From Minisyncoccota bacterium (GTDB taxonomy: Bacteria; Patescibacteriota; Minisyncoccia; Phycocordibacterales; Phycocordibacteraceae): a DNA stretch of 64,000 nt. The stretch lies in assembly GCA_041660025.1 (NCBI GenBank), contig JBAZXD010000001.1, positions 305,851 to 369,850 on the forward strand, read 5' to 3'. Shown here piece by piece: positions 19,856 to 64,000 of this stretch (position 1 is the first letter of the stretch; every line of letters starts with the position of its first letter). Made by a program: the position numbers and the translations under genes. The notes under the pieces are model-generated. The model worked only from the letters and a program-made list of their open reading frames with translations, did no database searches and was not told where the DNA came from.

Positions 19856-19861
19856 CTTCAA

Positions 19862-19903: not shown

Positions 19904-19905
19904 AG

Positions 19906-50864: not shown

Positions 50865-50981
50865 GCGCCACAGTATACCCCCAAGCGAAGCGAAGCTCTA
50901 GTATCGCTTTTGTGGGGATGGTTGCTAAAAACGAGGTTGTATTGTAGTTTTTGCTTGTCGCTCATTGTTAAGGAGGCACAC

Positions 50982-51164: not shown

Positions 51165-51221
51165 CACATTATTGTCCGCGGAGAGCGCTCGTCTGCTCCC
51201 GCGGACTTTTGTTTTATATAC

Positions 51222-52328
51222 TTACCCGACGATCTTGAAGATGTCGTGCGCGGTGACGACGAGCATCAGGAGGATGAGGAAGAGGAAGCCGATGCCATTC
51301 AGGGCTTGCGCGACACTCGCCTTGATAGGCCGACGGATGATGCTCTCGATGATGACGAAGAGGAGGCGGCCGCCGTCGAGCGCGGGGATGGGGATGAGAT
51401 TGATAAGCGCGAGGTTGATGGAAATGATGGCCATAATGGAGAAGAGATAGCCGAACCCCTGCATCGAGGCGGTGCCGACGACGCCCGCGATGCCGACAGG
51501 TCCCGCGACCTGCGAGAGGTCGGCGGAGAGGGTGAATATGCCGTAAAAGAAATGCCAGAGCCCGACGGCGGTCAGCTGTATCGCGCCCCAGGTGAGCGTC
51601 GCGCCCTCAATGATCGCCGCGCCGAGCGAGAGCGGCACGACGCCAACGGCGGCGACCTCGACCCCGAGCGCGGCGCGCGAGGGATCAGTGGAGATGATGC
51701 CGGCTTCAGGCCGCGCGAATATCGTCTCCTCTTCCCCGCTTGCGTGCCGGACGGAAAGTGCGATGGTCGTGTTCCCTCCCCCGTCCGAAACGAACTTCGT
51801 GAACGCGGCCGGATCCGCCCCCGAGAAAGCGTAATGCCCGTCTTCAGCGGAGAGGATGGTGTCGCCCGGAAGGAGTCCCGCGCGCGCGGCAGGCGAGGCG
51901 GGGAGCACCTGGGCTACCGCGAGCTCCACGTTTTGAGCTATTGCAATCTCCTCATCCCCGAGCGCGCGCGGTGTGCCGGTGATAAGCGCGCCGGTAATGA
52001 GCACGTAGGCGAAGAGGAGGTTCATCGCGATACCAGCGACGAGCACGAGCGCCTGTGCGAGACGCGGTTTCGAAGAGAATGCGCGAGCATCCCGGGCTTG
52101 TTCGGGAGACAAGCCATCCTCGCCATAAATCTTCACGAAGCCGCCGAAGGGCAGCCAATTGAGCGTGTAGGAGGTCTCGTTTATCTTCCCGATAACGAGG
52201 GCGCGCGGCGGATATCCGAGCCCGAATTCGTCCACGCGCATCCCCGAAAGTTTTGCCGCGATGAAATGCCCGAATTCGTGCACCACGATGAGCGCGACGA
52301 TGACGACGATGAATATCAGGATGCTCAT
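51222..52328 (-). CDS. rseP: Site-2 protease RseP (M50) with PDZ domain
   Basis: HEFGH zinc motif in TM1, central PDZ, and the C-terminal LDGG motif. Confidence 0.88.
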   Translation of the reverse strand: MSILIFIVVIVALIVVHEFGHFIAAKLSGMRVDEFGLGYPPRALVIGKINETSYTLNWLPFGGFVKIYGEDGLSPEQARDARAFSSKPRLAQALVLVAGIAMNLLFAYVLITGALITGTPRALGDEEIAIAQNVELAVAQVLPASPAARAGLLPGDTILSAEDGHYAFSGADPAAFTKFVSDGGGNTTIALSVRHASGEEETIFARPEAGIISTDPSRAALGVEVAAVGVVPLSLGAAIIEGATLTWGAIQLTAVGLWHFFYGIFTLSADLSQVAGPVGIAGVVGTASMQGFGYLFSIMAIISINLALINLIPIPALDGGRLLFVIIESIIRRPIKASVAQALNGIGFLFLILLMLVVTAHDIFKIVG

Positions 52329-52382
52329 GATTGCTTGAGTGTACTACATTTCCCGCTCTCTATTGTGCTCCGACAAAATGAT

Positions 52383-52410
52383 TTGACATTCTTCTGAAAA
52401 ACATATAGAG
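52383..52410 (+). promoter_or_regulatory. Candidate sigma70-like promoter (TTGACA ... TATAGA)
   Basis: ttgacattcttctgaaaaacatatagagt lies upstream of gene 52458; spacing of 15-16 nt is slightly short. Confidence 0.3.
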
Positions 52411-52457
52411 TGCACTTAGGAGCAGTCCCCCCCCTGTAACCAACCAAGGAGCGGTCC

Positions 52458-52736
52458 ATGAAAGGAAAACAGATTGGGGACACGTATGTCCTCATGGCAA
52501 AAGCAGAACAAGAAACGGGATATGAACACCCGAGTGGGAAAAGGGATATTTCGGAAACGAAAACGTATGACATATTCAGGCGCTTCAAGGCCGCGACGTT
52601 GCCGGAAGCTCAACGGAAAGCCAAGGCGATACTCGTAAAGTTCAAAAAGGACCGTCCTAAGCGCCTCGGAGGTATCAGTTGGGAATATCAAGCGCACATC
52701 GTTTCAAAATCACTCATGAAAGTAGTGCCGCTTTAG
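52458..52736 (+). CDS. Hypothetical small basic protein (low-GC orphan)
   Basis: 92 aa with a good SD (aaggagcggtccATG) and a downstream terminator. Confidence 0.45.
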   Translation: MKGKQIGDTYVLMAKAEQETGYEHPSGKRDISETKTYDIFRRFKAATLPEAQRKAKAILVKFKKDRPKRLGGISWEYQAHIVSKSLMKVVPL

Positions 52737-52751
52737 TCCTCAACGGATATG

Positions 52752-52790
52752 GAAAGCCCCGCTTGCACGGGGCTTTTTTATCACTGTGCT
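52752..52790. terminator. Bidirectional terminator between 52458..52736 and frr
   Basis: aaagccccg-cttgcac-ggggcttttttat. Confidence 0.55.
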
Positions 52791-53332
52791 ATCTCGGTTT
52801 CTTTGCGTTCCAGAATTTTCGCAAGGGCGTCGTTGCCGGCGTCGATGAGTTTTTGTATCTCTCCTTTGAGGCGCTTCACCTCATCTTCTCCCATACCGCC
52901 CGCCGCCTCCGCCGCTTCGAGCGCCTTCAAGGCGTCGGTGCGGTGCGAGCGGAGGGTCACCTTCGCTTGTTCGGTCTTGTCTCCCGCGATCTTCGAGAGC
53001 TGTGCGCGCCGCTCGCTCGTGAGCTCGGGAAATGACACCCGCAACCCTTGATCGTCGGTCGCGACGCCGACGCCGAGATCGGCGTCGACAATCCCCTTCT
53101 CTACCGCTTTCAGAATGCTCATATCCCAGGGGATGACGCGGAGCGTGCGCGCGTCCTCGACCGAGACACTCGCGAGTTCTCGAAGCGCAGTGCGCGTGCC
53201 ATAGGCCTCGGGCTTCACCGCGTCGAGAAGGCTCGGCGTTGCGCGGCCAGTGCGTACACCGGAGAGTTCGCGCGCGAGCCACTCCTCGGTCTCCTTGATG
53301 TTCACCTTCAGTTTTGAAAAGTCGTATGCCAT
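52781..53332 (-). CDS. frr: Ribosome recycling factor
   Basis: Full-length RRF pattern (VRTGRATPSLLD...RELASVSVED...LRVSFPELTSERR). Confidence 0.92.
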   Translation of the reverse strand: MAYDFSKLKVNIKETEEWLARELSGVRTGRATPSLLDAVKPEAYGTRTALRELASVSVEDARTLRVIPWDMSILKAVEKGIVDADLGVGVATDDQGLRVSFPELTSERRAQLSKIAGDKTEQAKVTLRSHRTDALKALEAAEAAGGMGEDEVKRLKGEIQKLIDAGNDALAKILERKETEIAQ

Positions 53333-53341
53333 ATAGTTACA

Positions 53342-54019
53342 TCATACCAAACCTTTCGGGATGACGAGCGAGAGATGTTCGAGAATCATACGCACCGGAG
53401 CGCTCCGGTCGTAGAGATGTCCGCGCAGGGTCGCGATATCGGATAAGAGCGCAGCGACTCCGTCGCCGCGCTTGAGCTTTTCATACGCCACCGCTTCCAC
53501 TCCATTCAGTATCGCAATCGCCTCTTCGCGATTCTCGCGCCGCTCCTCCTCATCCTTCCCGCTCGTAAGATTCTTGATAAGCGCACTGCGCTTCTCCTTG
53601 CTCGCCTTCATAAACTCCGCCGCCGCCGCCGGAATAAAGGACTTACGAAGTCCTTTATGAGTGTCGAGTACTTGGACGCGGGAACGGAGGGTTGGAAGGA
53701 GACCACCAAGGGACGGCAGTATGAAAAAAAGATATGTTCCAGAAGGCGGCTCTTCGAAGAGCTTCAGGAGCGCGTTCTGGGCTTCGTGGTAGGCGCGGTT
53801 CGCGGCGATGATGACGACCTTTGTGTCGCCCGCAAACGGCGCCCCCGCGGCGAGTTCAGACACTCGCCGCGCATCCTCGACCGAGAGCAGTCCGTACTTC
53901 AAAACGATGATGTCAGGATTCCCCTGCACCTTCATCCCGAGCTCCCGCTCCGCCCACGCCTGCGCCGCTTCAATCCCCTCCTCCGCTCCCGCCTCGATAA
54001 CAAACGCATGGTGCCGCAT
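53342..54019 (-). CDS. holB: DNA polymerase III delta'-like subunit (HolB-like, no Walker A)
   Basis: Conserved ALLKLFEEPP, LPTLRSRVQ sensor-2 region and C-terminal helical domain; N-terminus lacks a P-loop. Confidence 0.6.
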   Translation of the reverse strand: MRHHAFVIEAGAEEGIEAAQAWAERELGMKVQGNPDIIVLKYGLLSVEDARRVSELAAGAPFAGDTKVVIIAANRAYHEAQNALLKLFEEPPSGTYLFFILPSLGGLLPTLRSRVQVLDTHKGLRKSFIPAAAAEFMKASKEKRSALIKNLTSGKDEEERRENREEAIAILNGVEAVAYEKLKRGDGVAALLSDIATLRGHLYDRSAPVRMILEHLSLVIPKGLV

Positions 54020-54149
54020 GAGGTGATTATACTCGATATGATTGTTCTTCTTGAATCATTTGACAATATATGAGATATATGCAAAAATATTCTTGGTTTT
54101 TGATTGGCACGCTGTATAGGTGTCTTGTACAAACCGTGGAGAAACGATT

Positions 54150-54290
54150 GTGAAAAAATCCCTGTTCTTCCTGGGCCTTGCGGCCTTTGGTAGTTATCCT
54201 TTCCTCGGATTGGTTGTGCCTGCGACCCTCGGTTTTTTCTTGATGATCGGGGCAATCCTCCCTGAGAAGGCCTCTCACTACCACTGGTAG
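54150..54290 (+). CDS. Putative 46-aa hydrophobic micro-protein (GTG start)
   Basis: ggagaaacgattGTG start context; VKKSLFFLGLAAFGSYPFLGLVVPATLGFFLMIGAILPEKASHYHW. Not in the ORF track (<60 aa). Confidence 0.3.
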   Translation: MKKSLFFLGLAAFGSYPFLGLVVPATLGFFLMIGAILPEKASHYHW

Positions 54291-54391
54291 TGGACCTCGC
54301 TCATCGCCCGCAGAAGCTGTCGCTTCTCGGGCGGTTTCTGTTTTTATATCAAGAATTTAATATTCCAACATTCTTGAGAATGTGAGAATGT

Positions 54392-55417
54392 TCATTGCTT
54401 CGCGAGGATGCTTTTTTGGTACGTATCGAGATGCTTCAGCGCGATGCCGGTGCCGCGCGCGACGCAGTAGTAGGGGTCGTTGGCGAGCTTCGCGACCACG
54501 CCCGTGCGGCGGAAGACGAGCTCCGGCATCTGGCGAAGTTGAGAGGAGCCGCCGGTGAGGATGATGCCGTTGTCGATGATGTCGGCGGCGAGCTCGGGCG
54601 GCGTGTCCTGGAGCACCTTGCGTATCGCCTGCGTCATCTCGCGCAGTTCCCGCGACATCGCCTGCACGATATCGTTCGTCGAGATGTCGACCGTGCGCGG
54701 GAGCCCGCTCATCAGGTCGCGCCCCTTGACCGGCAGAGAGAGCTCTTCGTTCATCGGTACGGCCGCGCCGATCTTTATCTTAATTTCTTCCGCAGTCTTA
54801 TCGCCGATGGCGAGGTTGTGTTGCTTCTTCACGTGGTCAATGACCGCGCGGTCGAGCCGGTCGCCCGCGCACTTCACGCTCGTCGAGGCGACGATGCCGC
54901 CGAGAGAGATCACCGCGACGTCGATGGTGCCGCCGCCGATGTCCGCGACCATCCGCCCCATCGGCTCGTGGATAGGGATGCCCGCGCCGATAGCCGCGAG
55001 GATGGGCTCCTTCACCACGTATGCGTTCTTGGCCCCGGCCTTGAGCGCGGCCTCGATGACCGCGCGCTTCTCGGTCGAGGTGACCCCCGCGGGGACCGAG
55101 ACGAGCACCGTCGGCCTGAACGGATTGTGTCCGAGCGCCTTTTTCATAAAATATCTGAGCATCGCTTCGGTCACGCGGTAATCCGCGATAACCCCGTCCT
55201 TCATCGGGCGGTACGCGATAATGTCGCCCGGCGTGCGGCCAATCATCTTCTTCGCCTCCGCGCCGATGGCGAGTATCTTGTTACCGCCCTGCTTGCCGTG
55301 CGCCTTGCCCACCGCGACGACCGAGGGTTCGTTGATGATGACGCCCTTGCCGGGCACGAAGACGAGCACGTTGGTCGTCCCGAGGTCGATACCGAGCTTT
55401 GGAGAGAAGAAAGACAT
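54392..55417 (-). CDS. MreB/Mbl-like actin homolog (second paralog)
   Basis: LGIDLGTTNVLVFV, DIGGGT and other actin-fold phosphate motifs; ~45% similar to the mreB at 48.5 kb. Confidence 0.85.
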   Translation of the reverse strand: MSFFSPKLGIDLGTTNVLVFVPGKGVIINEPSVVAVGKAHGKQGGNKILAIGAEAKKMIGRTPGDIIAYRPMKDGVIADYRVTEAMLRYFMKKALGHNPFRPTVLVSVPAGVTSTEKRAVIEAALKAGAKNAYVVKEPILAAIGAGIPIHEPMGRMVADIGGGTIDVAVISLGGIVASTSVKCAGDRLDRAVIDHVKKQHNLAIGDKTAEEIKIKIGAAVPMNEELSLPVKGRDLMSGLPRTVDISTNDIVQAMSRELREMTQAIRKVLQDTPPELAADIIDNGIILTGGSSQLRQMPELVFRRTGVVAKLANDPYYCVARGTGIALKHLDTYQKSILAKQ

Positions 55418-55463
55418 TGTTTACATACTACCAAATGGTAGGATAGTTCGCATGCAAGGAGAA

Positions 55464-56762
55464 ATGAATTTCGTCATCGAGGGCGGGAAATCGCTCTCGG
55501 GCTCGGTCGAGGTAAGTCGGTCTAAGAACGGCGCCGTCGCCCTCCTCGCCGCCTCCCTCCTCAACCGCGGCAGGACGACGCTTCACCAGATGCCGAAGAT
55601 CGAAGAGGTAAACCGGCTCATCGAAGTACTTAAATCGATCGGCGTCCAGGTTGAGTGGCGGGGCTCGAGTCTCGTGATATCGCCACCTGAGAAGATTGAT
55701 CTCGGGCTCATCGACACCGAAGCCGCGACCAAGACCCGCAGCATTCTCATGTTCATCGGTCCCCTGATCCACCTCTTCAACGATTTTGAATTACCGCAAT
55801 CGGGCGGCTGTACGCTCGGGCTCCGTTCTATCCGCCAACACTTATGGGTGCTCGAGAAATTCGGCGTCACGATCGAGACGCTCACCGACCGCTATCAGAT
55901 AACGCGGAGCGAACTGACTCCCGCGACCATCATTCTCTACGAGGCGAGCGATACCGCGACCATCAACGCCCTCTTGGCCGCCGCGCGACTCTCCGACACA
56001 TCGGTCATTAAATACGCATCCGCGAATTATCAGGTGCAGGAGGTGTGCGGATTCCTCCGGGCGCTCGGCGTCGCTATCGAAGGCGTCGGCACGAGCACGC
56101 TTACCGTCACCGGCATCGCGGAGATACGGCGCGATATCGAGTACACCGTGGCCGAGGACCCGACCGACGCGATGTTCTTCATCACCGCCGCCGTCGCAAC
56201 CAAGAGCGCGCTCACGATTCGAAAAGCGCCTATCGAATTCCTCGAGGTAGAGCTGTTCGTGCTGGAGAAAATGGGACTGCGGTTTACCGTCGCCCCTGCC
56301 AGCGTGTCGGAAAACGGCATCACCAAGCTTGCTAATATCTCCATCGAGCCGTCAGAGCTCGTTGCATTCCCAGAAAAAATTCATGCACGTCCCTACCCCG
56401 CCCTCAACATCGACAATTTGCCGTTCTTCGCCGTTATCGCGACGCAGGCGAGGGGTACGACCCTCATCCACGATTGGTCCTACGAGAAGCGCGCCATCTA
56501 CTACACCGAGCTCGACCGTCTTGGCGCGCGTACCAATCTCCACGACCCGCACCGCATCTCGATCGAGGGCCCGACCACGCTCAAGGCCGCAGAGGTTATC
56601 TGCCCACCCGCGCTCCGACCCGCGACCATCATCCTCGTCGCAATGCTCGGGGCGAAAGGCCATTCGACACTCCGCAATGTCTACAGCATCAATCGCGGCT
56701 ACGAGAATATCGTCCGCCGCCTCCAGGAGCTCGGCGCCTCTATCGAATCCCACACCGGATAG
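55464..56762 (+). CDS. murA: UDP-N-acetylglucosamine 1-carboxyvinyltransferase
   Basis: MNFVIEGGKSLSGSVEVSRSKNGAVALLAASLL N-terminus (EPSP-synthase fold), preceded by SD caaggagaaATG. The 5' extension of ORF 55221 is antisense to mreB2. Confidence 0.9.
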   Translation: MNFVIEGGKSLSGSVEVSRSKNGAVALLAASLLNRGRTTLHQMPKIEEVNRLIEVLKSIGVQVEWRGSSLVISPPEKIDLGLIDTEAATKTRSILMFIGPLIHLFNDFELPQSGGCTLGLRSIRQHLWVLEKFGVTIETLTDRYQITRSELTPATIILYEASDTATINALLAAARLSDTSVIKYASANYQVQEVCGFLRALGVAIEGVGTSTLTVTGIAEIRRDIEYTVAEDPTDAMFFITAAVATKSALTIRKAPIEFLEVELFVLEKMGLRFTVAPASVSENGITKLANISIEPSELVAFPEKIHARPYPALNIDNLPFFAVIATQARGTTLIHDWSYEKRAIYYTELDRLGARTNLHDPHRISIEGPTTLKAAEVICPPALRPATIILVAMLGAKGHSTLRNVYSINRGYENIVRRLQELGASIESHTG

Positions 56763-56764
56763 GT

Positions 56765-57058
56765 ATGAAATCCATCGGCGAGATGCTCCCCGAGTTCGAG
56801 AAGAAAAGGGCGGAGGCGCCCAAAGGGAGAAAGCGCCAGACCGAGCGCGGCGAAATGATGCGCTTCTTCCTCCGTCATTTGAATTATTCCCGCAAGCAGG
56901 ACGGTCTCGCGCCGATGACGATGGCGCATCTCGGTACCGTCCTTGAGCAGATACCGACACAAGATTTGTATTATTTAAAAAGTGTCTGCAGTCAGGCCAA
57001 AAATTTCGGCAAGAAATTCTGGTGGGAACTCGACCCGACCAAGCACCCTCCCCGCTGA
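56765..57058 (+). CDS. Hypothetical protein
   Basis: 97 aa, start 3 nt after the murA stop; basic; no recognised family. Confidence 0.45.
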   Translation: MKSIGEMLPEFEKKRAEAPKGRKRQTERGEMMRFFLRHLNYSRKQDGLAPMTMAHLGTVLEQIPTQDLYYLKSVCSQAKNFGKKFWWELDPTKHPPR

Positions 57059-57079
57059 TTTTTTGATATAGTTCGCCCT

Positions 57080-58426
57080 ATGAAAGAGATTGTGCAAGAT
57101 GGTGCACCGGTGCTCCGCGAGGTCGCAAGCCCCGTGCCGGAAGAGCTCTTCGGGACGCCGGAACTCGCTCAGATTATCGCCGATATGACCGAGGCGCTCG
57201 ACCGCGAGCTCGAGGGCGTGGCGCTCGCCGCGCCGCAGATCGGCGTTTCCTATCGCATCTTCATCGTGCGGAAGGACCGCACGATAGACGTACATCGTGA
57301 TGAGTCGCATAAACTTTCTTCGCCGAAAGAGTTGGCACCCGAGGTTGAGGTATATATCAATCCTGAAATATTGAAGACCTCGCGGAGGCGTGCGGTGGTG
57401 GACGAGGGCTGTCTCTCAGTCCGCGGCATCTACGGCTCAACCAAGCGGCACGAGCGCGTCACGCTCCGCGCGCGGCGGGTCGACGGTTCCCGCTTCGAGC
57501 GCGGCGGCGGCGGCATAATGGCGCAGATATTCGAGCACGAAACTGACCACCTCAACGGCATCCTCTTCATCGATCATGCTGAACAGCTCATCAGTATCCC
57601 GCGCGGGTCGGCGCATCCGTTCATCTATTTCGGTACGCCACAGGTCGCGAGCGACACACTTGAGATCCTTATCGAACGCGGTTTTCTCCCCTCGCTCGTG
57701 GTCACCTCGCCGGACGCCCCGAAGGGTCGCGGTCTCGCGCTCGCTTCATCAGAGACAAAGGTGTGTGCACTCGCACACGGCATCCCCGTCCTCACCCCCG
57801 AGAAGCTCGATGCCGAAATAATCGCTACTCTCGCCGCACTCGGGGCTGAGTACGCTATCGTCGTCGCCTACGGCAAGATATTCCCCGACGAGCTTATTAA
57901 GGCCTTCCCGCTCGGGGTACTGAACGTCCACTACTCGCTCCTACCGAAGTATCGCGGCGCGACGCCGCTTGAGGCCGCATTGCGCGCGGGCGAGACCGAG
58001 ACCGGAGTCTCGGTCCAGAAGATGGTGCGAGAGCTCGACGCCGGCGACATCATTGCTCAGGAGGCTGTGCCAATCGCTCCCGGCGAGACTGCACGCGAGC
58101 TGCGCCCGCGGCTCATCAAGCTCGGCGCGACGCTCCTCGCCGATACGCTCCCCGCCTATCTTGAAGGCAGTGTCGTCTCCGTTCCCCAGGATGCAGCGCT
58201 CGCTTCGCGCTCAGGGAAGTTGAAGAAGGAGGACGGTCTTCTCGCGCTCGACGCGCCCGCTGAGGAGAATTGGAACAAGTACCGCGCATATGCGGATAGC
58301 ATCGGCACGTATTTCTTTGAAAACGGCAAACGGATGAAGATAACGAGCGCAACATTTAAAAACGGGAAATTCCTCATCGAACGCGTCATCCCCGAAGGCA
58401 AGCGCGAAATTGAGTACAGAAGTTAG
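57080..58426 (+). CDS. def-fmt: Peptide deformylase / methionyl-tRNA formyltransferase fusion protein
   Basis: One 448-aa ORF. Residues 1-~180 carry Def motifs (GVALAAPQIG, EGCLS, QIFEHETDHLNG). Residues ~181-448 carry Fmt motifs (FIYFGTPQVA N-terminus, HYSLLPKYRG, C-terminal beta domain). No stop or start at the junction. Confidence 0.8.
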   Translation: MKEIVQDGAPVLREVASPVPEELFGTPELAQIIADMTEALDRELEGVALAAPQIGVSYRIFIVRKDRTIDVHRDESHKLSSPKELAPEVEVYINPEILKTSRRRAVVDEGCLSVRGIYGSTKRHERVTLRARRVDGSRFERGGGGIMAQIFEHETDHLNGILFIDHAEQLISIPRGSAHPFIYFGTPQVASDTLEILIERGFLPSLVVTSPDAPKGRGLALASSETKVCALAHGIPVLTPEKLDAEIIATLAALGAEYAIVVAYGKIFPDELIKAFPLGVLNVHYSLLPKYRGATPLEAALRAGETETGVSVQKMVRELDAGDIIAQEAVPIAPGETARELRPRLIKLGATLLADTLPAYLEGSVVSVPQDAALASRSGKLKKEDGLLALDAPAEENWNKYRAYADSIGTYFFENGKRMKITSATFKNGKFLIERVIPEGKREIEYRS

Positions 58427-58451
58427 AAGTCAATTTCAAAACGTCCACGAG

Positions 58452-58524
58452 AGCCGGTGCGAAGAAAAACGGTAGTAAGACTTGGCCTAGCGGCCCGGAG
58501 CGCGACCGTTTTTCTTCGTACCGG
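58452..58524 (+). repeat. Structured element copy B: 19-bp stem (one G-U) enclosing the same 35-nt core as at 12341..12375
   Basis: Left arm gccggtgcgaagaaaaacg and right arm cgtttttcttcgtaccggc. The arms differ from copy A but remain complementary; the core is identical. Confidence 0.6.
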
Positions 58525-58546
58525 CGAACGAGTTTTGAAATGATTT

Positions 58547-58909
58547 CTAGCGGCCGAAGCGCAGGATGCGCTTGATCGCCGCGCCGCCGCGCTTCATCAG
58601 CCGTTGCGTGCGGCCGCGCGAGCGCCGTATCTCGGCTTCGAGCTCGCTCCGCACCCTGTCCGCCGCGCTCTCGGGATTCGGCTTTACCGCTTCCGCGTGG
58701 AAGACTTGGTCGTTGATGATGAGCCGCGCGACGAGGCGGCAGGGCTCCGACGAGCGCCCCTCGGGCGGCGCCTCCTCGACCTCTATCTCGAGCAGAGCGC
58801 GGTCGCCCTCCTCTCCGAGCAGGCGGAGCGGTGCCGCGAGCTTCTTCTCGATAAGCGCTTCGGTCTCGGGACTCAGCGTAAACTTTGTCGCCTTGATCGT
58901 AATGTTCAT
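58547..58909 (-). CDS. hpf: Ribosome hibernation promoting factor (HPF/RaiA family)
   Basis: MNITIKATKFTLSPETEALIEKKL matches the S30AE family; start placed at the MNITIK Met. Confidence 0.85.
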   Translation of the reverse strand: MNITIKATKFTLSPETEALIEKKLAAPLRLLGEEGDRALLEIEVEEAPPEGRSSEPCRLVARLIINDQVFHAEAVKPNPESAADRVRSELEAEIRRSRGRTQRLMKRGGAAIKRILRFGR

Positions 58910-58937
58910 AGGAGCGGTATCAGCTGGTAAGCAAAGC

Positions 58938-59159
58938 TTATTCGATACTAACACTTATCATTTTAGCGCGTGAACGGTGTCCTGTCAGGATGCGCACACT
59001 GCCTAATGGCTTTCCGAGGCGCAGGGCAACGAGCTCGCGCACACGCAGATTGGCGCGATTCCCGCTCGCCGGCTCCCGCACCGAGATGAGGAGCGTCTCT
59101 CCCTTCTCTTCGACCTTCTCCTTCTTCGCATCCGGCGTGACGAATATTTTGATATACAC
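58938..59159 (-). CDS. DUF167/YggU-family protein
   Basis: IKIFVTPDAKKEKVEE..LLISVREPASGNRANLRVRELVALRLGKP matches UPF0235. Confidence 0.7.
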   Translation of the reverse strand: MYIKIFVTPDAKKEKVEEKGETLLISVREPASGNRANLRVRELVALRLGKPLGSVRILTGHRSRAKMISVSIE

Positions 59160-59203
59160 ACTCCTATACTACCGTCCGCGCGGGTATACAATCAACAGCA
59201 GCT

Positions 59204-59824
59204 ATGTTCAAGGATCGCAAAGATGCAGGGAAACAGCTCGCACGAAAACTCGCGGTCTATGCGGGGAAGTCTACCGTCGTTCTCGCGCTCCCGCGCGGCG
59301 GAGTCGTCACCGGATACGAGATTTCCCGGGCGCTAAAAGCACCCTTCGATATCATCGCGGTGCGCAAGGTCGGCCATCCGTCCAACCCGGAATATGCGGT
59401 CGGCGCGGTCGATGAGAACGGCGCTTCCCTCTTCAATAAAGAAGAGGCCGCGACGATAGACGCGAAACTGCTCCGTCAGGAAACCGCCAAGGAGCTCACA
59501 GAGGCTCGGCGACGGAGCGTCGTCTATCGCGGCGGGAGAGCGTCGCTGGATCTTGTCGGGAAAATTGTCCTCCTCGTAGATGACGGCATCGCGACCGGCC
59601 TTACCATGCGGCTTGCAGTGCGCTCTGTGAAGGCTCAAGAGCCGGAAAAAGTGATCGTCGCGGCACCCGTTGCGCCGCTTGAAGCTATTCAGTATCTCAA
59701 GAAAGAAGGAGCTGATGACGTTATCACGCTCGAGCCGCCCGAAGCCTTTAACGGCGCCGTCGGCGCCCACTACGAACAGTTCGAGCAGGTGGAGGATGCG
59801 GAGGTTGTAAGATTGTTGCGCTAG
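59204..59824 (+). CDS. Phosphoribosyltransferase-domain protein
   Basis: PRPP-binding motif VLLVDDGIATGLTM. Confidence 0.8.
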   Translation: MFKDRKDAGKQLARKLAVYAGKSTVVLALPRGGVVTGYEISRALKAPFDIIAVRKVGHPSNPEYAVGAVDENGASLFNKEEAATIDAKLLRQETAKELTEARRRSVVYRGGRASLDLVGKIVLLVDDGIATGLTMRLAVRSVKAQEPEKVIVAAPVAPLEAIQYLKKEGADDVITLEPPEAFNGAVGAHYEQFEQVEDAEVVRLLR

Positions 59825-60060
59825 GGCTTCGGATACTGCGCGCGCAGATAGGCAACGATATCGTCCGATTCGTACATCTCGATTCCCTTCTCGCTGTCGA
59901 CGAGGTACGGCACCTGCCGCTTCCCGCCGCGCGCGACGAGCTCAGCGGCGACCGCGTCGTCCGCGATATTCTTCTCGTCAAACGCGATACCGAGCTCCGC
60001 CCCCGCATCGAGCACCTTGTGGCAGAACGGGCATCCGGTCTTCACGTAGAGCGTGAGCAT
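59821..60060 (-). CDS. Glutaredoxin-like protein
   Basis: CPFC active site and thioredoxin-fold length (79 aa). Confidence 0.8.
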   Translation of the reverse strand: MLTLYVKTGCPFCHKVLDAGAELGIAFDEKNIADDAVAAELVARGGKRQVPYLVDSEKGIEMYESDDIVAYLRAQYPKP

Positions 60061-60064
60061 ATCT

Positions 60065-60283
60065 TTATAACTTCCCGATTTCCTTTAAGTCTTTGTCTGG
60101 AATATATAGGATAAACAATCCGATAATGATGCCCCCGAGCGCAGTCCAGACAGGACTACTGCCAAAGAGCCACTTGTCGAATCCGTCCAGCACATACCAG
60201 ATGCCGCGCCAGATCAGGACCAGACCGATAACTATAGAAATGTTTCGAGCGAAATATTGCAATGTGATTTTATTTTTCAACAT
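60065..60283 (-). CDS. Hypothetical small membrane protein
   Basis: 72 aa, two TM helices. Confidence 0.45.
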   Translation of the reverse strand: MLKNKITLQYFARNISIVIGLVLIWRGIWYVLDGFDKWLFGSSPVWTALGGIIIGLFILYIPDKDLKEIGKL

Positions 60284-60376
60284 AAGTAAGTGGGTCCCTC
60301 CATTCTACCGCACAAATGGGCCGAAGTGAACGGCTCAGACGGGGTCTGAGCCGTTCACCGCGCTATACTGGGAGAT

Positions 60377-60700
60377 ATGGAACACCTACATACAGAGGGA
60401 GGGGACAGAGCCAGGGTAACCCCAGAATCTATACAATCGGCGGCAATTAGGTTTAACGGCGGTACGTACACCGGAATAAACCATGCCTATGCTATTCGCC
60501 AGCTTGAAAAAGAGCATCCCGATTGGCAGAGCGTAAATAAGGAACCTGTTCAAGAAGGATTTCTCACGAGTGCCGGAAGATTTGTTGATAGGGACGAGGC
60601 GGGAGAAATCGCAGAGAGAGCGAGCCAGCTCGACCACTTGGACGGAGAAGAGAGAGCGGGCGCGACCTCAAATCTGGACTCCTATCACCTGCCCCATTAA
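60377..60700 (+). CDS. Hypothetical protein (low-GC)
   Basis: 107-aa ORF with no recognised domain. Confidence 0.4.
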   Translation: MEHLHTEGGDRARVTPESIQSAAIRFNGGTYTGINHAYAIRQLEKEHPDWQSVNKEPVQEGFLTSAGRFVDRDEAGEIAERASQLDHLDGEERAGATSNLDSYHLPH

Positions 60701-60710
60701 AAAGATTCCG

Positions 60711-60911
60711 CTAGATACTTGTGCCTGCCCCTCCTTTCTTCCTGTTCTTTACCGCTCCCACTATGCCGGCAATCACTGCGAGGAGTCCGAGCAGTTGCCC
60801 TCCGGGGCTATCGTCCATTTCGCCATAGACAATCATAAATGCCCCGAATGCTATCGCGAGGATGGAGTACGCTACCCTGCGCATATTCATTTGCTTCATA
60901 TCTCTTTGCAA
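60711..60911 (-). CDS. Hypothetical small membrane protein (TTG start in track)
   Basis: 66 aa, two TM helices and a basic C-terminus. Confidence 0.4.
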   Translation of the reverse strand: MQRDMKQMNMRRVAYSILAIAFGAFMIVYGEMDDSPGGQLLGLLAVIAGIVGAVKNRKKGGAGTSI

Positions 60912-61009
60912 CCCTCACAACGACCCTCTGGTTTCTGTACAGAACATTGCGACATATGGTTTTTCGGTTAGAATGCAGACACGCCTTCCGCAAGGAGGGC
61001 GCACCACAT

Positions 61010-61081
61010 TCCGCGGTAGCTCAGTGGTAGAGCGGCTCGCTGTTAACGAGTTGGTCGTAGGTTCGAATCCTACCCGCGGAG
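61010..61081 (+). tRNA. tRNA-Asn (anticodon GTT), no encoded CCA
   Basis: Acceptor TCCGCGG/CCGCGGA, D arm GCTCAGTGGTAGAGC, anticodon loop CTGTTAA (GTT), T arm GTAGG-TTCGAAT-CCTAC, discriminator G. Confidence 0.85.
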
Positions 61082-61097
61082 CTTAGTTTTCAAAATT

Positions 61098-61580
61098 ATG
61101 GATACCCTCACTTTGACGAGTCCTGCATTCGAAAATAACGGGATGATTCCCGCGAAGTACACCTGCGACGGGGATCGCGAACTCTCGCCGCCGCTCGCTA
61201 TCGACGGCGTGCCAGAGGCGGCGAAGTCGCTCGTGCTTGTTATGGACGACCCGGACATTCCAGAAGTGAAGAAGCGGGAGTTCGGGCTCGAGGCCTTTGA
61301 CCACTGGGTGCTCTTCAATATCCCGCCAAAGACGCGTGAGATACCCGAGGGTACCGCGGCGGGCACGCCAGGCGCCACCACCCGGGGCGAGCCGCACTAC
61401 GTCGGCCCCTGCCCGCCGCCCGAGTACGAGCCGCGCGAGCACCGCTACTTCTTCCGGCTCTACGCGCTCGACGCTCCCCTCCCGCTCCCCGCCGGTGCGA
61501 CGAAAGACGAGGTGCTCTCGGCGCTCGCGCCGCACCTCCTCGCCGAAGCAGAGCTCGTCGGCCGTTACTCCAGGAAATAA
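61098..61580 (+). CDS. YbhB/YbcL-family PEBP (Raf-kinase-inhibitor-like) protein
   Basis: PEBP signature (DPDIP...FDHWVLFNIP...PPxxxHRYFFRLYALD). Confidence 0.85.
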   Translation: MDTLTLTSPAFENNGMIPAKYTCDGDRELSPPLAIDGVPEAAKSLVLVMDDPDIPEVKKREFGLEAFDHWVLFNIPPKTREIPEGTAAGTPGATTRGEPHYVGPCPPPEYEPREHRYFFRLYALDAPLPLPAGATKDEVLSALAPHLLAEAELVGRYSRK

Positions 61581-61669
61581 TCCTCCGACGAATCTGGTTG
61601 CGTGGACACAAAATCGGGCGTATAAGACAAAAGGAACGATTAGATAAACCACTACAAAGGAGCAATACG

Positions 61670-62359
61670 ATGTTGCCCACACGGGAAATGATTGAAATGT
61701 TGCAGGCTGCGCTTATGCAGGGGGATTGGAAAATCCTGATGGTACCCGCCCCCGGCAGTAGTCTGCTGAATACGGTTCCCATCATCGACTTCCGATTTCA
61801 GGATATTCTGGTCCTGGTCCTCGACCTTCAGCACGAGACCGGGGAGAAGGAGACGCTGAGAGCTCAAGTGAAGAGCGTCGATATCCAAGGACAGTTCGGC
61901 ACCGGCGGTACCGAACCGCGGAGGTTCACGGTCTCTTTCCGCGATACTTCTGGGACCCTGCATCAGCAAGCGCTGGAGGGCATCGGAGGCTGGGGCATAC
62001 TCGGGTCCGGGGACGTCGGTCTGGCATTCATCCGCGACAAGGATGCTCCGCCGGGCTGGCCACTCCATCGGAATGGTTCCCGTGTATACGGGTTCGAGGA
62101 ACACTTAAGCCGTCTCGGAAGCGGCGAGAATCTCCTCAGAACTTCACGTATTGCCCAGCCCAAAGCCCTCCTGGTCGATGATGTGCTCGCGACGGGCGAC
62201 CGCGTGTTGTCCACTCCGCGACAAGGATGCAACGGCTCCATCCTCGTCCACTTGACCGGCGGATTCGATGGTCACTGGATCGAGATGGCGCCACGGCTCC
62301 CGATTGCCCTGCTCACGAAGGAGGATAATGCTCCGCAGGGGCTCTGGAACCTTCAATAG
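61670..62359 (+). CDS. Hypothetical protein
   Basis: 229 aa from the ATG with a strong SD (caaaggagcaatacgATG); no recognised domain. Confidence 0.5.
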   Translation: MLPTREMIEMLQAALMQGDWKILMVPAPGSSLLNTVPIIDFRFQDILVLVLDLQHETGEKETLRAQVKSVDIQGQFGTGGTEPRRFTVSFRDTSGTLHQQALEGIGGWGILGSGDVGLAFIRDKDAPPGWPLHRNGSRVYGFEEHLSRLGSGENLLRTSRIAQPKALLVDDVLATGDRVLSTPRQGCNGSILVHLTGGFDGHWIEMAPRLPIALLTKEDNAPQGLWNLQ

Positions 62360-62375
62360 GCAAGACGCTCGACAC

Positions 62376-62418
62376 CGGCCGCACTTTCTCGCGAGAGAAA
62401 TGTGCGGCTATTTTTTTA
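62376..62418 (+). terminator. Rho-independent terminator
   Basis: ccgcactttctcgcgagagaaatgtgcgg hairpin followed by CTATTTTTTTATT. Confidence 0.45.
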
Positions 62419-62441
62419 TTATCTGGGAATGAGAATATCTC

Positions 62442-63482
62442 CTATTCTCTCGGCAGGTGCGGATAGATCGAGAGAAGCGCGAAGAGGAGGCTGGCGCAGA
62501 GCGGCCCGAGGAAGAGGCCTGCGGCGCCGAAGAACGCAAGACCGCCAAAGACGGAGAGGAGAACGATGAGCGGGTGGAGTTGGGTTCCCTTCCCCATCAG
62601 ACGTGGACCGAGGAAGTTGTCGATAAGCCCGACCGCGAGCACGCTCCAGATCAGGAGCCCCACCGCCGGCGTTATCGCGCCCATAAGGAACAGGTAAGCG
62701 ACGCCGGGGATGAGAACGAGCGAGGTGCCGATGCCGGGGATGAGCGCAGAGAGTGCGGCCACCACACCCCAGAGAACGCTGTTTGGCACGCCGAAGAATG
62801 TGAACCCAATCCCCGTCAGGATGCCCTGTATGACGGCGATGGTGAGGCTCCCTCGAATGACCGAATTTATGGCGCGCTCGAGGCGCGAGAACACGATGTC
62901 GTCGTCGGTGTCCCGCAGAGGGCTCACACTGATCACTTCCCGCTTCAGTCGTGCGCCGTCGCGGAGGAAATAATAGAGCGCGACGAGAAATATGAAGAAG
63001 TCGAGGAGTACCCGGGCGGTGCTCCCGAATGCGCCGCCCAAGTTCTGTATCAGCCAGGCGAGACCGTCTTTCATATGCTGGTCGATGGAGGCCGAGAGGT
63101 CCGCGCTCGAGAGCGCGAGGCTCGGCGCGTACTGCGCGGTGAGGTCGTTTGTATATCGGAACACGGTGCCGAGGTATGTCTCGCCGCCGCCGCTTGCGAG
63201 AGAGCCGTACAGACTCCGTGCCTCGCCGGCAATCTGCACGGTAACGAAGGTAAGCGGCACCACGATACAGACCACCGTAAGCGCCATCGTCGCGAACGCC
63301 GCGAGCCCCGGCGAGCCGCTCATACGGCTCAGTATCGCCCGATAGAGCGGCTGGAGCACCACCGCGAACACGACCGCGAGCACCACGGCGATAAGGAACG
63401 GACGGAAAATGAAGAAGGCAAGGACTGAGGAAACAGCGACGAGCGCGATGAGGAAATAGTGTTGCGGTGTCTTCGTATTCAT
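62442..63482 (-). CDS. AI-2E family transporter (PerM/UPF0118)
   Basis: 8-TM topology with the family's conserved central loop (RLKREVISVSPLRDTDDDIVFSRLERAINSVIRG). Confidence 0.85.
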   Translation of the reverse strand: MNTKTPQHYFLIALVAVSSVLAFFIFRPFLIAVVLAVVFAVVLQPLYRAILSRMSGSPGLAAFATMALTVVCIVVPLTFVTVQIAGEARSLYGSLASGGGETYLGTVFRYTNDLTAQYAPSLALSSADLSASIDQHMKDGLAWLIQNLGGAFGSTARVLLDFFIFLVALYYFLRDGARLKREVISVSPLRDTDDDIVFSRLERAINSVIRGSLTIAVIQGILTGIGFTFFGVPNSVLWGVVAALSALIPGIGTSLVLIPGVAYLFLMGAITPAVGLLIWSVLAVGLIDNFLGPRLMGKGTQLHPLIVLLSVFGGLAFFGAAGLFLGPLCASLLFALLSIYPHLPRE

Positions 63483-63657
63483 ATCGGATAGTATATACAG
63501 TTTGCTCCTCGTTGGATACTCGCGAACGCAACCCTTTGTCGATTCGAGGAGTTATAGGAGATGGAAGCACCTTGTCAGGATGAGGATAGCCGAGGAGATG
63601 CACCCTGTGTCTCGCTGCTTCGATATTCGAAACGGCTTATCCATCATAAAAACTCCT

Positions 63658-63840
63658 ATGGGAATATTGCACGCCCTAGGGTTCGGCCTCTTCCTCATCA
63701 TCCTTCTATTCCTCTTGCCCGATGTCTTCTCCGAACTCGCGAAAACAATCATTGTGTTCCTGCAGAGTTCTCAAGAAGCGTTTGCGGCCGCCGGAATACT
63801 CGCCTCGTACGCCGGACATATTCCGCCCGTCGTACCCTAA
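63658..63840 (+). CDS. Hypothetical small membrane protein
   Basis: 60 aa from an internal Met of ORF 63502; hydrophobic; terminator follows. Confidence 0.35.
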   Translation: MGILHALGFGLFLIILLFLLPDVFSELAKTIIVFLQSSQEAFAAAGILASYAGHIPPVVP

Positions 63841-63845
63841 CAGCG

Positions 63846-63885
63846 AAAAACCATCCTTCTCCTCCGAGGATGGTTTTTTATTTCT
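63846..63885 (+). terminator. Rho-independent terminator
   Basis: aaaaccatcc-ttctcctccga-ggatggttttttatttc. Confidence 0.55.
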
Positions 63886-64000
63886 CTGAATGAATTGTGG
63901 GAAACAAGGCAGCTACCGTTGGGTGCGGTAGCTGTGAGAGACGACGATTCATAGGATGACATAGCCCTGAACGATGAGTGGCAGGCAATATTCTCTGATT

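What the first reader, a model, noticed from the sequence alone, without database searches (positions are those of the whole stretch)
58452..58524. Second copy of the conserved-core hairpin element (copy B) between convergent def-fmt and hpf
The core is the same 35 nt as at 12341..12375. Arms are gccggtgcgaagaaaaacg and cgtttttcttcgtaccggc, a 19-bp stem with a single G·U on the + strand. The element lies between convergently transcribed genes, which is consistent with a 3'-end element rather than a 5' leader. It is recorded separately so both loci get examined. The single wobble gives a strand-of-transcription prediction (+) that transcriptome data can test.
Basis: seen in the sequence. Interest (0 to 1): 0.6.

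Follow-up and report, generated by a model that had tools for sequence, protein, structure and literature searches.

The report
Mobile hairpin element of ultra-small bacteria
The hairpin between def-fmt and hpf is one copy of an apparently undescribed family of small mobile hairpin elements found across the ultra-small Patescibacteria (CPR), which sit between genes and even in-frame inside essential proteins, each carrying a nearly invariant cap on a freely varying stem.

Summary
The hairpin is at 58453..58525, one base off, with a 21-bp stem, one G·U and a 35-nt core identical to the one at 12341..12375.

It is not a private 3'-end signal. Scans found about 150 distinct copies in CPR genomes and metagenomes. 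Rfam, phage, plasmid and literature searches found nothing.

- **Structure:** the long stem covaries massively. The apical hairpin and closing pair show compensatory changes. The purine-rich internal loop is nearly invariant.
- **Location:** copies lie in intergenic spacers abutting stop codons. Others sit in-frame in ValRS, ArgRS, PrmC-like, FtsJ-like, RarA, UvrC and an O-antigen-ligase-like protein, in either orientation.
- **Mobility:** the def-fmt/hpf site is empty in the closest relatives and filled in the opposite orientation in others. Near-identical hairpins occur at unrelated loci.
- **Strand:** G·U outnumbers A·C 59:12 (ungapped count) on the element's + strand, whatever the host gene direction.

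Best reading (0.5): a non-autonomous mobile palindromic element, like Rickettsia RPEs or REP/IS200-type hairpins. It is probably recognised as a folded single strand, most likely DNA, through its conserved cap. Copy B (long form, 58427..58546) fills the gap between two stop codons and may incidentally terminate both genes. The partner enzyme and any host function are unknown.

The parts
58427..58546 (+). Copy B, long form: the whole 120-nt insert that fills the space between the TAG of def-fmt and the CTA (TAG on the - strand) of hpf.
   Evidence: The empty site in the closest relative reads TAG|CTA with no spacer. The same long form, with outer arms, occurs in other gene contexts.
58425..58445 (+). 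Outer left arm (AGAAGTCAATTTCAAAAC G TC). It pairs with 58530..58548 and contains the CAAAAC tract.
   Evidence: Fold of 58425..58550. The arm pair (TA)GAA[A/G]TCATTTCAAAAC ... GTTTTGAAATGA.TTC(TA) is conserved in L010, L020, L023, L030, L031, L045, L057, L075, L083 and L199.
58451..58452 (+). 5' GA of the tandem G·A/A·G mismatch at the base of the long stem. Its partner is GA at 58526..58527.
   Evidence: GA...GA is semi-conserved at the stem base in alignment A1. That it forms a tandem sheared G·A is inferred, not shown.
58453..58473 (+). P1, 5' arm (GCCGGTGCGAAGAAAAACGGT), 21 nt. G58459 forms the G·U wobble with T58519.
   Evidence: Covariation over 70 and 108 copies: 25 of 28 and 22 of 23 pairs change on both sides.
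58474..58504 (+). Apical module AGTAAGACTTGGCCTAGCGGCCCGGAGCGCG. It has a closing G-C and U·G, a purine-rich internal loop (AAGA / GAGC or AGC), then C-G and U·G, a U x C mismatch, and the P2 hairpin. It is nearly invariant across the family.
   Evidence: Exact in 85 metagenome stretches. In the genome scan the 5' loop was left free by the pattern and reads G-U-[A/U/G]-[A/G]-G-A-C. The closing pair changes G-C to A-U in L208 and L211.
58484..58495 (+). P2: GGCC-UAGC-GGCC apical hairpin. The tetraloop is NAGC.
   Evidence: Compensatory GGCC/GGCC to GGGC/GCCC change at independent loci (L208, L211, L119:4122, L095:2310) and G·U in L209. Eight sequences depart from C-G at this pair (G-C in 7, G·U in 1).
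58505..58525 (+). P1, 3' arm (ACCGTTTTTCTTCGTACCGGC).
58530..58548 (+). Outer right arm (GA GTTTTGAAATGATTTCT). It supplies a U-tract after the stem on the + strand. Its complement does the same on the - strand.
12322..12394 (+). Copy A, short form: a perfect 21-bp stem with different arms and the same core, lying between the ftsW/rodA-like gene and murG.
57080..58426 (+). def-fmt fusion gene (left neighbour). Its stop codon TAG is at 58424..58426.
58547..58954 (-). hpf / S30AE-family gene (right neighbour). Its stop codon is at 58547..58549.

Best explanation
Copy B is a long-form member of a Patescibacteria-wide family of small (about 75-125 nt) non-autonomous mobile palindromic elements.

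**Anatomy.** Each element has a long stem (17-23 bp) whose sequence is free so long as it pairs. The stem is often closed at its base by a tandem G·A and a few more pairs. It is capped by a nearly invariant asymmetric module of about 30 nt. That module has a G-C and U·G closing pair, a purine-rich internal loop, and a GGCC-NAGC-GGCC hairpin.

**Behaviour.** The whole hairpin is copied to new sites. It lands in the tiny intergenic spacers right at stop codons. It also survives in-frame inside proteins, because two of the three frames are open on each strand. It can flip orientation in place or be lost.

**Form under selection (inferred).** The selected form is the folded + strand, independent of host transcription. 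It is therefore most likely single-stranded DNA, or less likely a transcript of its own. The invariant cap would be the handle for an unidentified trans-acting protein that moves or maintains it. Known analogues are REP/RAYT, hairpin elements derived from IS200/IS605, and integron attC sites.

**Insertion site (inferred from 5 cases).** Insertion is at the dyad of a short palindrome, or it creates a short inverted duplication, so the flanks extend the stem.

**At this locus.** The element went in exactly between the abutting stop codons TAG|CTA. It now lies in the 3' ends of both convergent transcripts. There its stem plus the flanking U-tracts probably also act as a bidirectional terminator or stabiliser, as a by-product.
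For: **Family and spread.**
- 85 metagenome stretches carry the exact core.
Hits are in Kaiserbacteria, Adlerbacteria, Nomurabacteria, Paceibacteria, Minisyncoccia, Saccharibacteria/Nanosyncoccus and Peregrinibacteria/Peribacteria.
- This gives 148 distinct hairpin-bearing copies in 72 locus groups.

**Structure.**
- The covariation score is 0.528 against 0.149 in shuffles, and about 0.1 when partners are slid. On the second alignment it is 0.658 against 0.142.
- An unbiased sample of ValRS orthologues, and extra covariance-model hits, show compensatory changes in P2 and in the closing pair.
- The unpaired G, A and C of the 5' loop are invariant even though the search pattern left them free.

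**Mobility.**
- The def-fmt/hpf site is empty in L001/L002 (TAG|CTA) and in L074.
- It is filled with a short form in the opposite orientation in L178 and L080, and with a short form in + orientation in L064.
- L159 and L205, and L095 and L105, are hairpins identical but for 1 nt. No flank similarity is detectable even by tblastx, and identity ends exactly at the stem base.

**In-frame copies.** Pfam confirms ValRS, a PrmC-like MTase, RarA/MgsA, a Wzy_C protein, an FtsJ-like MTase, ArgRS and UvrC. Both orientations occur at the same site in PrmC, RarA and Wzy_C orthologues.

**Strand.**
- G·U against A·C is 59:12 in an ungapped count.
- It is 47:1 in -|- and 49:2 in +|+ contexts.
- In five validated antisense in-gene copies the + strand still folds 2-13 kcal/mol better.
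- Flanking GC skew is negative in the element's orientation in 48 of 68 locus groups, p = 0.0009.

**Flank palindromes.** CTCC|GGAG, TGTT|AACA, GGGA(G)|(C)TCCC and TAG|CTA.

**Comparison with known elements.** RPEs insert in-frame in Rickettsia genes. Correia elements invert and are cut by RNase III (PMC10969869).
Against: - No transposase, HUH nuclease or recombinase was found next to any copy or between paired copies. Only housekeeping genes lie there.
- There is no conserved terminal inverted repeat in the short form and no clear direct target-site duplication. The TA on both sides of long forms is palindromic, so it is uninformative.
- Decayed copies are rare. Only a handful turned up in about 1.3 Mb. 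Orthologous in-gene copies keep the structure over 65-79% protein identity, with one decayed case, L210. That looks more like purifying selection on each copy than like junk.
- The skew bias puts the + strand on the C-rich strand. From my own knowledge this is the opposite of what IS200/IS605-type transposition on the lagging-strand template predicts.
- Stem complementarity could in part be kept up by template-switch correction of quasi-palindromes, without any function.
- There are no expression data.
Confidence: 0.5

Rival explanations
1. It is a host-functional structured RNA motif. The hairpin would be a cis-acting RNA element, such as a 3'-end stabiliser, processing site, bidirectional terminator or binding site for a global RNA-binding protein. 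It would have been spread and kept because each copy is useful.
For: - Covariation is strong, G·U is tolerated and the internal loop is invariant.
- Decayed copies are few.
- Many copies abut stop codons, and convergent gene pairs are common among contexts (32 of 101 classified intergenic contexts).
- About three quarters of copies have an A-tract before and a U-tract after the cap, which reads as terminator-like on both strands (pair types).
- In copy B, GUUUUG follows the outer stem on both strands.
Against: - In tandem gene contexts the orientation is random: 26 sense against 29 antisense.
- The G·U asymmetry follows the element, not the transcribed strand.
- Copies sit inside essential coding sequences such as ValRS and ArgRS, where a terminator or RNase site would be harmful.
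- The same locus is empty in close relatives.
- The canonical terminator scan does not call copy B.
- There is no Rfam family.
Confidence: 0.2
2. It is a chromosomal single-stranded or cruciform DNA site used by host machinery. Examples would be dispersed oriT-like nick sites for the CPR type IV secretion or conjugation apparatus, sites for recombination or replication restart, or uptake signals. On this view it is not a selfish element.
For: - The strand specificity is independent of transcription.
- Orientation is biased relative to GC skew.
- The cap is conserved across CPR classes.
- Density is about one copy per 30-70 kb.
Against: - Copies are gained, lost and inverted at orthologous sites.
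- Identical hairpins occur at unrelated loci.
- Copies lie inside proteins.
- The orientation bias is only about 70:30.
- No plasmid or phage carries it.
Confidence: 0.12
3. It is a programmed inverton. The 21-bp arms would be recombination substrates that flip the 31-nt cap. Flipping would recode about 10 residues inside proteins, or switch something in spacers, as a form of phase variation.
For: - Both orientations occur at the same site in PrmC, RarA, Wzy_C and the def-fmt/hpf spacer.
- The open frames correspond on inversion: VRLGLAARS with ALRAARPSL, and KTWPSGPER with RSGPLGQVL.
- Correia elements are reported to invert (PMC10969869).
Against: - The arms are variable and the centre is conserved, which is the reverse of known invertase sites.
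- From my own knowledge, a 31-bp invertible segment is very short for a synaptic complex.
- Orientation differences were seen only between species, not within populations.
- The recoded peptides sit in variable surface linkers.
Confidence: 0.07
4. It is an enzyme-free palindrome that spreads and is maintained by replication template switching. Snap-back synthesis would copy a donor hairpin and a few flanking bases. On this view the conserved cap has no recognition role.
For: - The flanks of recently moved copies are short inverted repeats that differ from copy to copy.
- The arms stay perfectly complementary.
- No associated enzyme gene was found.
Against: - It cannot explain the near-invariance of unpaired cap nucleotides across CPR classes.
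- It cannot explain the 5-10:1 G·U over A·C asymmetry.
- At copy B the palindrome TAG|CTA already exists in the empty site.
Confidence: 0.07

Closest known systems
Rickettsia palindromic elements (RPE)
   Same: - They are short palindromic repeats in a reduced genome.
- They are dispersed in spacers and inserted in-frame into unrelated housekeeping genes, which stay intact.
- No transposase is known (PMC10969869; here).
   Different: - The taxon is different and no sequence relationship is known.
- This element is about half the size.
- Here the arms are free to vary and only the cap is conserved.
- Both orientations occur at the same protein site.
- The spread covers a whole superphylum rather than one genus.
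REP/BIME elements with RAYT (Y1 HUH) transposases, and hairpin elements derived from IS200/IS605
   Same: - Both are small imperfect palindromes that act as folded single strands, with strand specificity.
- Both are non-autonomous.
- A GTAG motif is present at the 5' edge of the cap in the Kaiserbacteria-type copies.
   Different: - The REP stem sequence is conserved within a genome and copies run to the hundreds. Here there are about 10-30 copies and the stems differ.
- REPs are extragenic.
- GTAG is not conserved across this family.
- No RAYT or TnpA gene was seen.
- The skew bias is opposite to the lagging-strand-template rule for IS200/IS605 (the rule itself is from my own knowledge).
Correia / NEMIS elements of Neisseria and other bacterial MITEs
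   Same: - The size range is 100-150 bp.
- The long form has conserved terminal inverted arms flanked by TA.
- They insert near gene ends, and inversion is reported.
- Transcribed hairpins would be RNase III substrates.
   Different: - The short form has no conserved terminal repeats.
- The conserved part is the centre.
- No parent insertion sequence is known.
- TA cannot be told apart from part of the palindrome.
Integron attC sites
   Same: - Both are recognised as a folded single strand.
- The sequence is largely free provided the structure is kept.
- One strand is the functional one.
   Different: - In attC the conserved boxes are at the base of the stem and the tip is variable, which is the opposite of this element.
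- attC sites sit in cassette arrays next to an integrase, whereas these copies are dispersed singletons.
Intrinsic bidirectional terminators (for example window 19853..19908)
   Same: - Both lie between convergent genes.
- Both have an A-tract, a stem and a U-tract that read the same on both strands.
   Different: - The apical module is 31 nt and structured, not a 3-8 nt loop.
- Copy B is not called by the terminator scan.
- Family members occur inside coding sequences and between divergent genes.

Membership tests
Any Rfam 15 RNA family | A covariance-model match at or near the family's gathering score. | tested here: not met
   The window at gathering threshold gave only 3 tRNAs. Region 58380..58600 at E up to 10 gave only noise, for example miRNA-precursor models at 18 bits against cut-offs of 96-168.
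Intrinsic (Rho-independent) terminator | A G+C-rich stem with a loop of 3-8 nt, followed directly by a T-run. | tested here: not met
   The consensus scan of 50000..64000 lists no site in 58425..58550. The 'loop' is a 31-nt structured module. GTTTTG follows only the outer stem.
Rickettsia palindromic elements | A palindromic repeat inserted in-frame in unrelated protein genes that stay intact. | tested here: met
   Seven host protein families were verified by Pfam, with open frames through the element.
Rickettsia palindromic elements | Sequence homology to an RPE family consensus, and occurrence in Rickettsia. | not tested
   No RPE consensus was available to compare. All hairpin-bearing copies found here are in Patescibacteria. 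The element is therefore filed as an analogue, not a member.
MITE (for example Correia) | Conserved terminal inverted repeats. | tested here: inconclusive
   The long form has conserved outer arms. The short form, including copy A, has arms that differ between copies.
MITE (for example Correia) | A direct target-site duplication. | tested here: inconclusive
   TA lies on both sides in 5 of 9 long forms, but TA is its own complement. Recently moved short forms have inverted flanks, not direct ones.
MITE (for example Correia) | A parent autonomous insertion sequence with matching ends. | tested here: not met
   No recurrent neighbour family appeared among 148 copies. Genes between paired copies are LigA, ParA/ParB, UvrC and DoxX. 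Whole genomes were not searched.
REP / RAYT | A conserved 5' GTAG followed by a palindrome whose sequence is conserved within a genome, with high copy number and extragenic location. | tested here: not met
   GTAG occurs only in one subfamily. Stems differ within a genome. Density is about one copy per 30-70 kb. About a quarter of copies were classed inside ORFs, some of them ORF-calling artefacts.
REP / RAYT | A RAYT (Y1 transposase) gene in the genome, typically flanked by REPs. | not testable with these tools
   Only 8-kb stretches around hits were available. No whole-genome protein inventory could be made.
Integron attC | Conserved R''/L'' and L'/R' boxes at the base of the stem with a variable tip, located in a cassette array. 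| tested here: not met
   The conservation pattern is the reverse, and the copies are dispersed singletons.
Inverton (including intragenic) | Both orientations coexist within one population. | not testable with these tools
   Both orientations were seen only between different genomes. No read-level data were available.

The most novel reading that the evidence does not exclude
The element could be a new class of mobile or host-exploited hairpin element specific to Patescibacteria. It would be recognised as a folded single DNA strand through an invariant cap of about 30 nt by a still unknown, CPR-wide enzyme. It would insert at the dyad of short palindromes, so that convergent stop codons are natural targets. 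It would flip in place and so recode loops of essential proteins. If so, the cap marks an undiscovered nucleic-acid enzyme system shared by a whole superphylum.
Probability: 0.25. Interest if true: 0.85.

Novelty: new variant of a known kind. Interest (0 to 1): 0.7.

Why it matters
Patescibacteria make up a large share of bacterial diversity, have tiny genomes, and are almost unexplored genetically.

- **An unknown partner.** A repeated element with a cap conserved across the superphylum implies a conserved partner, either an enzyme or a binding protein. Nobody has described one. The cap sequence gives a direct bait for finding it.
- **Parallel with Rickettsia.** The in-frame copies in aminoacyl-tRNA synthetases, UvrC, RarA and methyltransferases show that, as in Rickettsia, palindromic DNA remodels essential proteins in reduced genomes. 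Here this happens in both orientations at the same site.
- **Annotation.** These hairpins extend or truncate predicted C-termini. For example, def-fmt in L178 reads into the element. They also create spurious small ORFs.
- **Possible genetic tool.** If the insertion rule (palindrome dyads) holds, it could become a site-selective tool for organisms that are only now becoming tractable.

Tried and rejected
- **Rfam.** Searches at gathering and at permissive thresholds gave nothing.
- **Exact-protein look-up of the window's def-fmt.** Not on record. Relatives had to be reached through homologues.
- **Other collections.** Viral contigs, plasmids and phages gave no copy.
- **Literature.** Searches on CPR or Patescibacteria with palindromic, MITE or structured-RNA terms, and on the core sequence itself, gave nothing relevant. 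One search was wasted on terms that were too general.
- **Associated 'master' gene.** Clustering the neighbours of 148 copies found only locus-specific housekeeping families. Genes between paired copies are housekeeping.
- **Peptide search.** An HMMER search with the 38-aa translation of copy B, meant to count host proteins, returned only one spurious 40-aa ORF.
- **Ideas considered and dropped on sequence grounds:**
  - Self-cleaving ribozymes: no core motifs, and the copies sit in essential mRNAs.
  - K-turn: no 3-nt bulge next to the tandem G·A.
  - SECIS: the TGA at the stem base is simply the neighbour's stop codon, and in-gene copies have no in-frame TGA.
  - tRNA-Ser D-arm resemblance: 15-16 of 21 nt as recalled from memory, but a different secondary structure.
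  - TIGR arrays: these are tandem arrays next to tas genes, whereas these copies are singletons.
  - Outward promoters in the long arms: TTGAAA has no -10 partner.
- **Other occurrences of TTTCAAAAC in the window.** Those at 1058 and 53311 are coding sequence, not solo arms.
- **Similar stems at non-orthologous loci as proof of mobility.** I rejected this for weak cases such as L030/L052/L066, because only about 6 stem positions are free. I kept only the two near-identical pairs.

Full report
**1. The observation**

The sequence at the given place is as described. Arms gccggtgcgaagaaaaacg and cgtttttcttcgtaccggc enclose the 35-nt core GTAGTAAGACTTGGCCTAGCGGCCCGGAGCGCGAC. The same 35 nt occur at 12341..12375 between quite different but equally complementary arms. 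The core has 2 exact matches in the window, no third within 3 mismatches, and 0 in 100 shuffles.

The hairpin is really 58453..58525, one base to the right of the finding. The outermost two bases on each side of the 'core' pair as well, giving a 21-bp stem with one G·T at 58459/58519. The + strand folds to -43.4 kcal/mol (z = -6.6) and the - strand to -37.3 kcal/mol.

The neighbours are a def-fmt fusion (57080..58426 +) and an S30AE/hpf gene (58547..58954 -), as Pfam confirms.

The finding missed a second, outer pair of arms, 58425..58445 with 58530..58548. With these the whole spacer between the two stop codons is one nested palindrome (-64.5 kcal/mol, z = -8.5).

**2. Organism**

The def-fmt protein is 100% identical to one from a 387-kb contig labelled Candidatus Paceibacterota. 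Its relatives are Kaiserbacteria and other Patescibacteria.

**3. A large family**

A metagenome scan for the core, with the tetraloop left free, returned 85 stretches. All of them have flanking arms that differ in sequence but pair.

The hits are in Kaiserbacteria, Adlerbacteria, Nomurabacteria, Paceibacteria, Minisyncoccia, Saccharibacteria including Nanosyncoccus, and Peregrinibacteria/Peribacteria. The few hits in other phyla have no hairpin and score as noise.

After removing duplicates there are 148 hairpin-bearing copies in 72 locus groups. Density is roughly one copy per 30-70 kb.

Rfam has nothing like it. Viral contigs, plasmids and phages have no copy. Literature searches, including a search for the core sequence itself, found nothing.

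**4. Structure**

- **Long stem (70 copies).** 25 of 28 pairs change on both sides. The covariation score is 0.528 against 0.149 in shuffles and about 0.1 with slid partners.
- **Long stem (108 genome copies).** The score is 0.658 against 0.142.
- **Ascertainment.** The apical module was fixed by my search patterns, so its invariance there proves little. Three things escape that bias:
  - The 5' internal-loop strand was left free in the genome scan and reads G-U-[A/U/G]-[A/G]-G-A-C, with G, A and C essentially invariant.
  - An unbiased sample of ValRS orthologues contains variant copies. Their DNA shows GGCC/GGCC changed to GGGC/GCCC, a G·U at the same pair, and the closing G-C changed to A-U. 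One copy, L210, has a decayed tip but an intact stem and loop strands.
  - Covariance-model hits that my patterns had missed show the same P2 flip at other loci.
- **Resulting model.** The fold is P1 (variable), a closing G-C and U·G, an internal loop AAGA over GAGC/AGC with a possible tandem G·A, then C-G and U·G, a U x C mismatch, and P2 GGCC-NAGC-GGCC.
- **Stem base.** A tandem GA/GA and a few more pairs are common at the base of P1.
- **Minor variant.** A variant cap, GUUGAA-UUGGCC-UAGC-GGCC-CGAGCGC, recurs in several genomes.

**5. Where the copies sit**

- **Intergenic contexts.** There are 32 convergent, 26 tandem-sense, 29 tandem-antisense and 14 divergent contexts. These rest on a crude ORF caller.
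- **Stop codons.** Many copies abut stop codons, often with TGA overlapping the basal GA.
- **In-frame copies.** About a quarter of copies were classed inside open reading frames, some of them ORF-calling artefacts. Pfam confirms the hosts as ValRS, a PrmC-like methyltransferase, RarA/MgsA, a Wzy_C membrane protein, an FtsJ-like methyltransferase, ArgRS and UvrC.
- **Reading frames.** Two of three frames are open on each strand, giving KTWPSGPER or VRLGLAARS in sense and ALRAARPSL or RSGPLGQVL in antisense.
- **Both orientations at one site.** Orthologues of PrmC, RarA and Wzy_C carry the element at the same site in opposite orientations.
- **Orthologues without the insert.** These exist for ValRS (L058 and about 100 database proteins) and for PrmC (L071).

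**6. Mobility**

At the def-fmt/hpf locus itself the states differ between relatives:

| Relative | def-fmt identity to window | State of the site |
|---|---|---|
| L001, L002 | 77.5% | Empty; the two stop codons abut as TAG\|CTA |
| L074 | about 74% | Empty; the two stop codons overlap in TTAA |
| L178 | 71% | Short form, opposite orientation; def-fmt reads into the element |
| L080 | 68% | Short form, opposite orientation |
| L064 | 46% | Short form, + orientation |

The long form of copy B occurs with the same outer arms in unrelated contexts.

Two pairs of hairpins, L159/L205 and L095/L105, are identical but for one base. Their 2-kb flanks share nothing even at the translated level, and identity stops exactly at the base of the stem.

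Just outside, the flanks are complementary to each other but differ between copies: CTCC|GGAG, TGTT|AACA and GGGA(G)|(C)TCCC. L205 has only G|C. For copy B the flanks are TAG|CTA, a palindrome that already exists in the empty site. So the element either targets the dyad of short palindromes or makes a short inverted duplication. Convergent stop codons form such palindromes naturally, which would explain their excess among contexts.

**7. Which strand matters**

- In an ungapped count over the first 17 stem positions, G·T mismatches outnumber A·C 59 to 12 on the element's + strand.
- With folded structures the ratio is 248:24. It is the same for copies antisense to both neighbours (47:1) as for sense copies (49:2). 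This count favours G·U somewhat by construction.
- In five validated antisense in-gene copies the + strand still folds 2-13 kcal/mol better than the strand present in the mRNA.
- Selection on pairing therefore follows the element, not host transcription.
- Flanking GC skew is negative in the element's orientation in 48 of 68 locus groups (p = 0.0009), in every gene-context class. Gene orientation correlates only weakly with skew in these loci. This suggests a link to replication strand, but it is a 70:30 bias measured from 8-kb flanks.

**8. Interpretation**

The combination points to a non-autonomous mobile palindromic element:
- recent identical copies at unrelated sites;
- patchy occupancy and inversion at orthologous sites;
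- in-frame survival in proteins;
- a strand-specific folded form that ignores host transcription.

Its cap is the likely recognition handle for a trans-acting protein. The nearest analogues are Rickettsia RPEs for behaviour and REP/RAYT, IS200/IS605-type hairpins or attC for the folded-single-strand logic. RPE and Correia properties are taken from PMC10969869.

It is not a member of any of these:
- the conserved part is the tip, not the ends;
- stems differ within a genome;
- copy number is low;
- no transposase was seen.

The steps are:
- **Shown:** family, structure, contexts, polymorphism, strand asymmetry.
- **Inferred:** single-stranded DNA as the active form, the existence of a partner protein, dyad targeting.

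The scarcity of decayed copies and the long-term maintenance of structure in orthologous copies leave real room for a host function. That is why confidence is 0.5. The rivals are RNA motif, host DNA site, inverton and enzyme-free template switching.

**9. Copy B in particular**

It is a long-form copy occupying 58427..58546, inserted exactly between TAG and CTA. It will be transcribed into the 3' ends of both def-fmt (as + strand RNA) and hpf (as - strand RNA). GUUUUG follows the outer stem on both strands, so a bidirectional terminator or stabiliser effect is plausible. It is secondary, however, and the standard terminator scan does not call it.

Noticed in passing
window 12322..12394: Copy A of the same family (short form, perfect 21-bp stem) lies between the ftsW/rodA-like gene and murG in the cell-wall gene cluster. 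An ORF reading through it in the VVRLGLAARSAT frame runs into murG, but this is probably an artefact of upstream extension.
   Followed up: partly
window 19853..19908: A perfect 26-nt inverted repeat with a 4-nt loop (TAACTTCAAATAAAAAACACGGCGCC / GGCGCCGTGTTTTTTATTTGAAGTTA) lies between convergent ORFs. It is a textbook bidirectional intrinsic terminator and a useful contrast to the element.
   Followed up: no
window 57080..58426: Peptide deformylase and methionyl-tRNA formyltransferase are fused into one 448-aa protein. The fusion is shared by thousands of Patescibacteria proteins in the database.
   Followed up: no
window 26146..34137 (-): There is a single ORF of 2663 aa. It was not examined.
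   Followed up: no
L128 1778..1918 (-), Candidatus Peribacteria contig: Two cores lie 84 nt apart, each preceded by the same 5' arm. Only the second has a matching 3' arm. It looks like a local tandem duplication of a partial element.
   Followed up: no
L018:2084-2172, L153, L169, L180, L181, L099: A distinct cap variant (GUUGAA-UUGGCC-UAGC-GGCC-CGAGCGC, one base shorter on the 3' side) recurs in several genomes, sometimes alongside the main type.
   Followed up: partly
L178 4795..4910; L080 1180..1298: In these relatives def-fmt has lost its own stop codon. It reads into the inverted element and stops at the TAG formed by the tetraloop, so the element supplies the C-terminus and the stop codon.
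   Followed up: partly
68 locus groups across L004..L207: Flanking GC skew is negative in the element's orientation in 48 of 68 groups (p about 0.001), independent of neighbour gene orientation. This hints at a replication-strand preference.
   Followed up: partly
ValRS orthologues (P0121..P0240): ValRS proteins with the insert are only about 10 residues longer in that linker than most without it (56 against 46 between the KLWN motif and the next helix). The element is about 24 codons long. Either the linker was shorter in the ancestor or part of the stem replaced pre-existing sequence.
   Followed up: no
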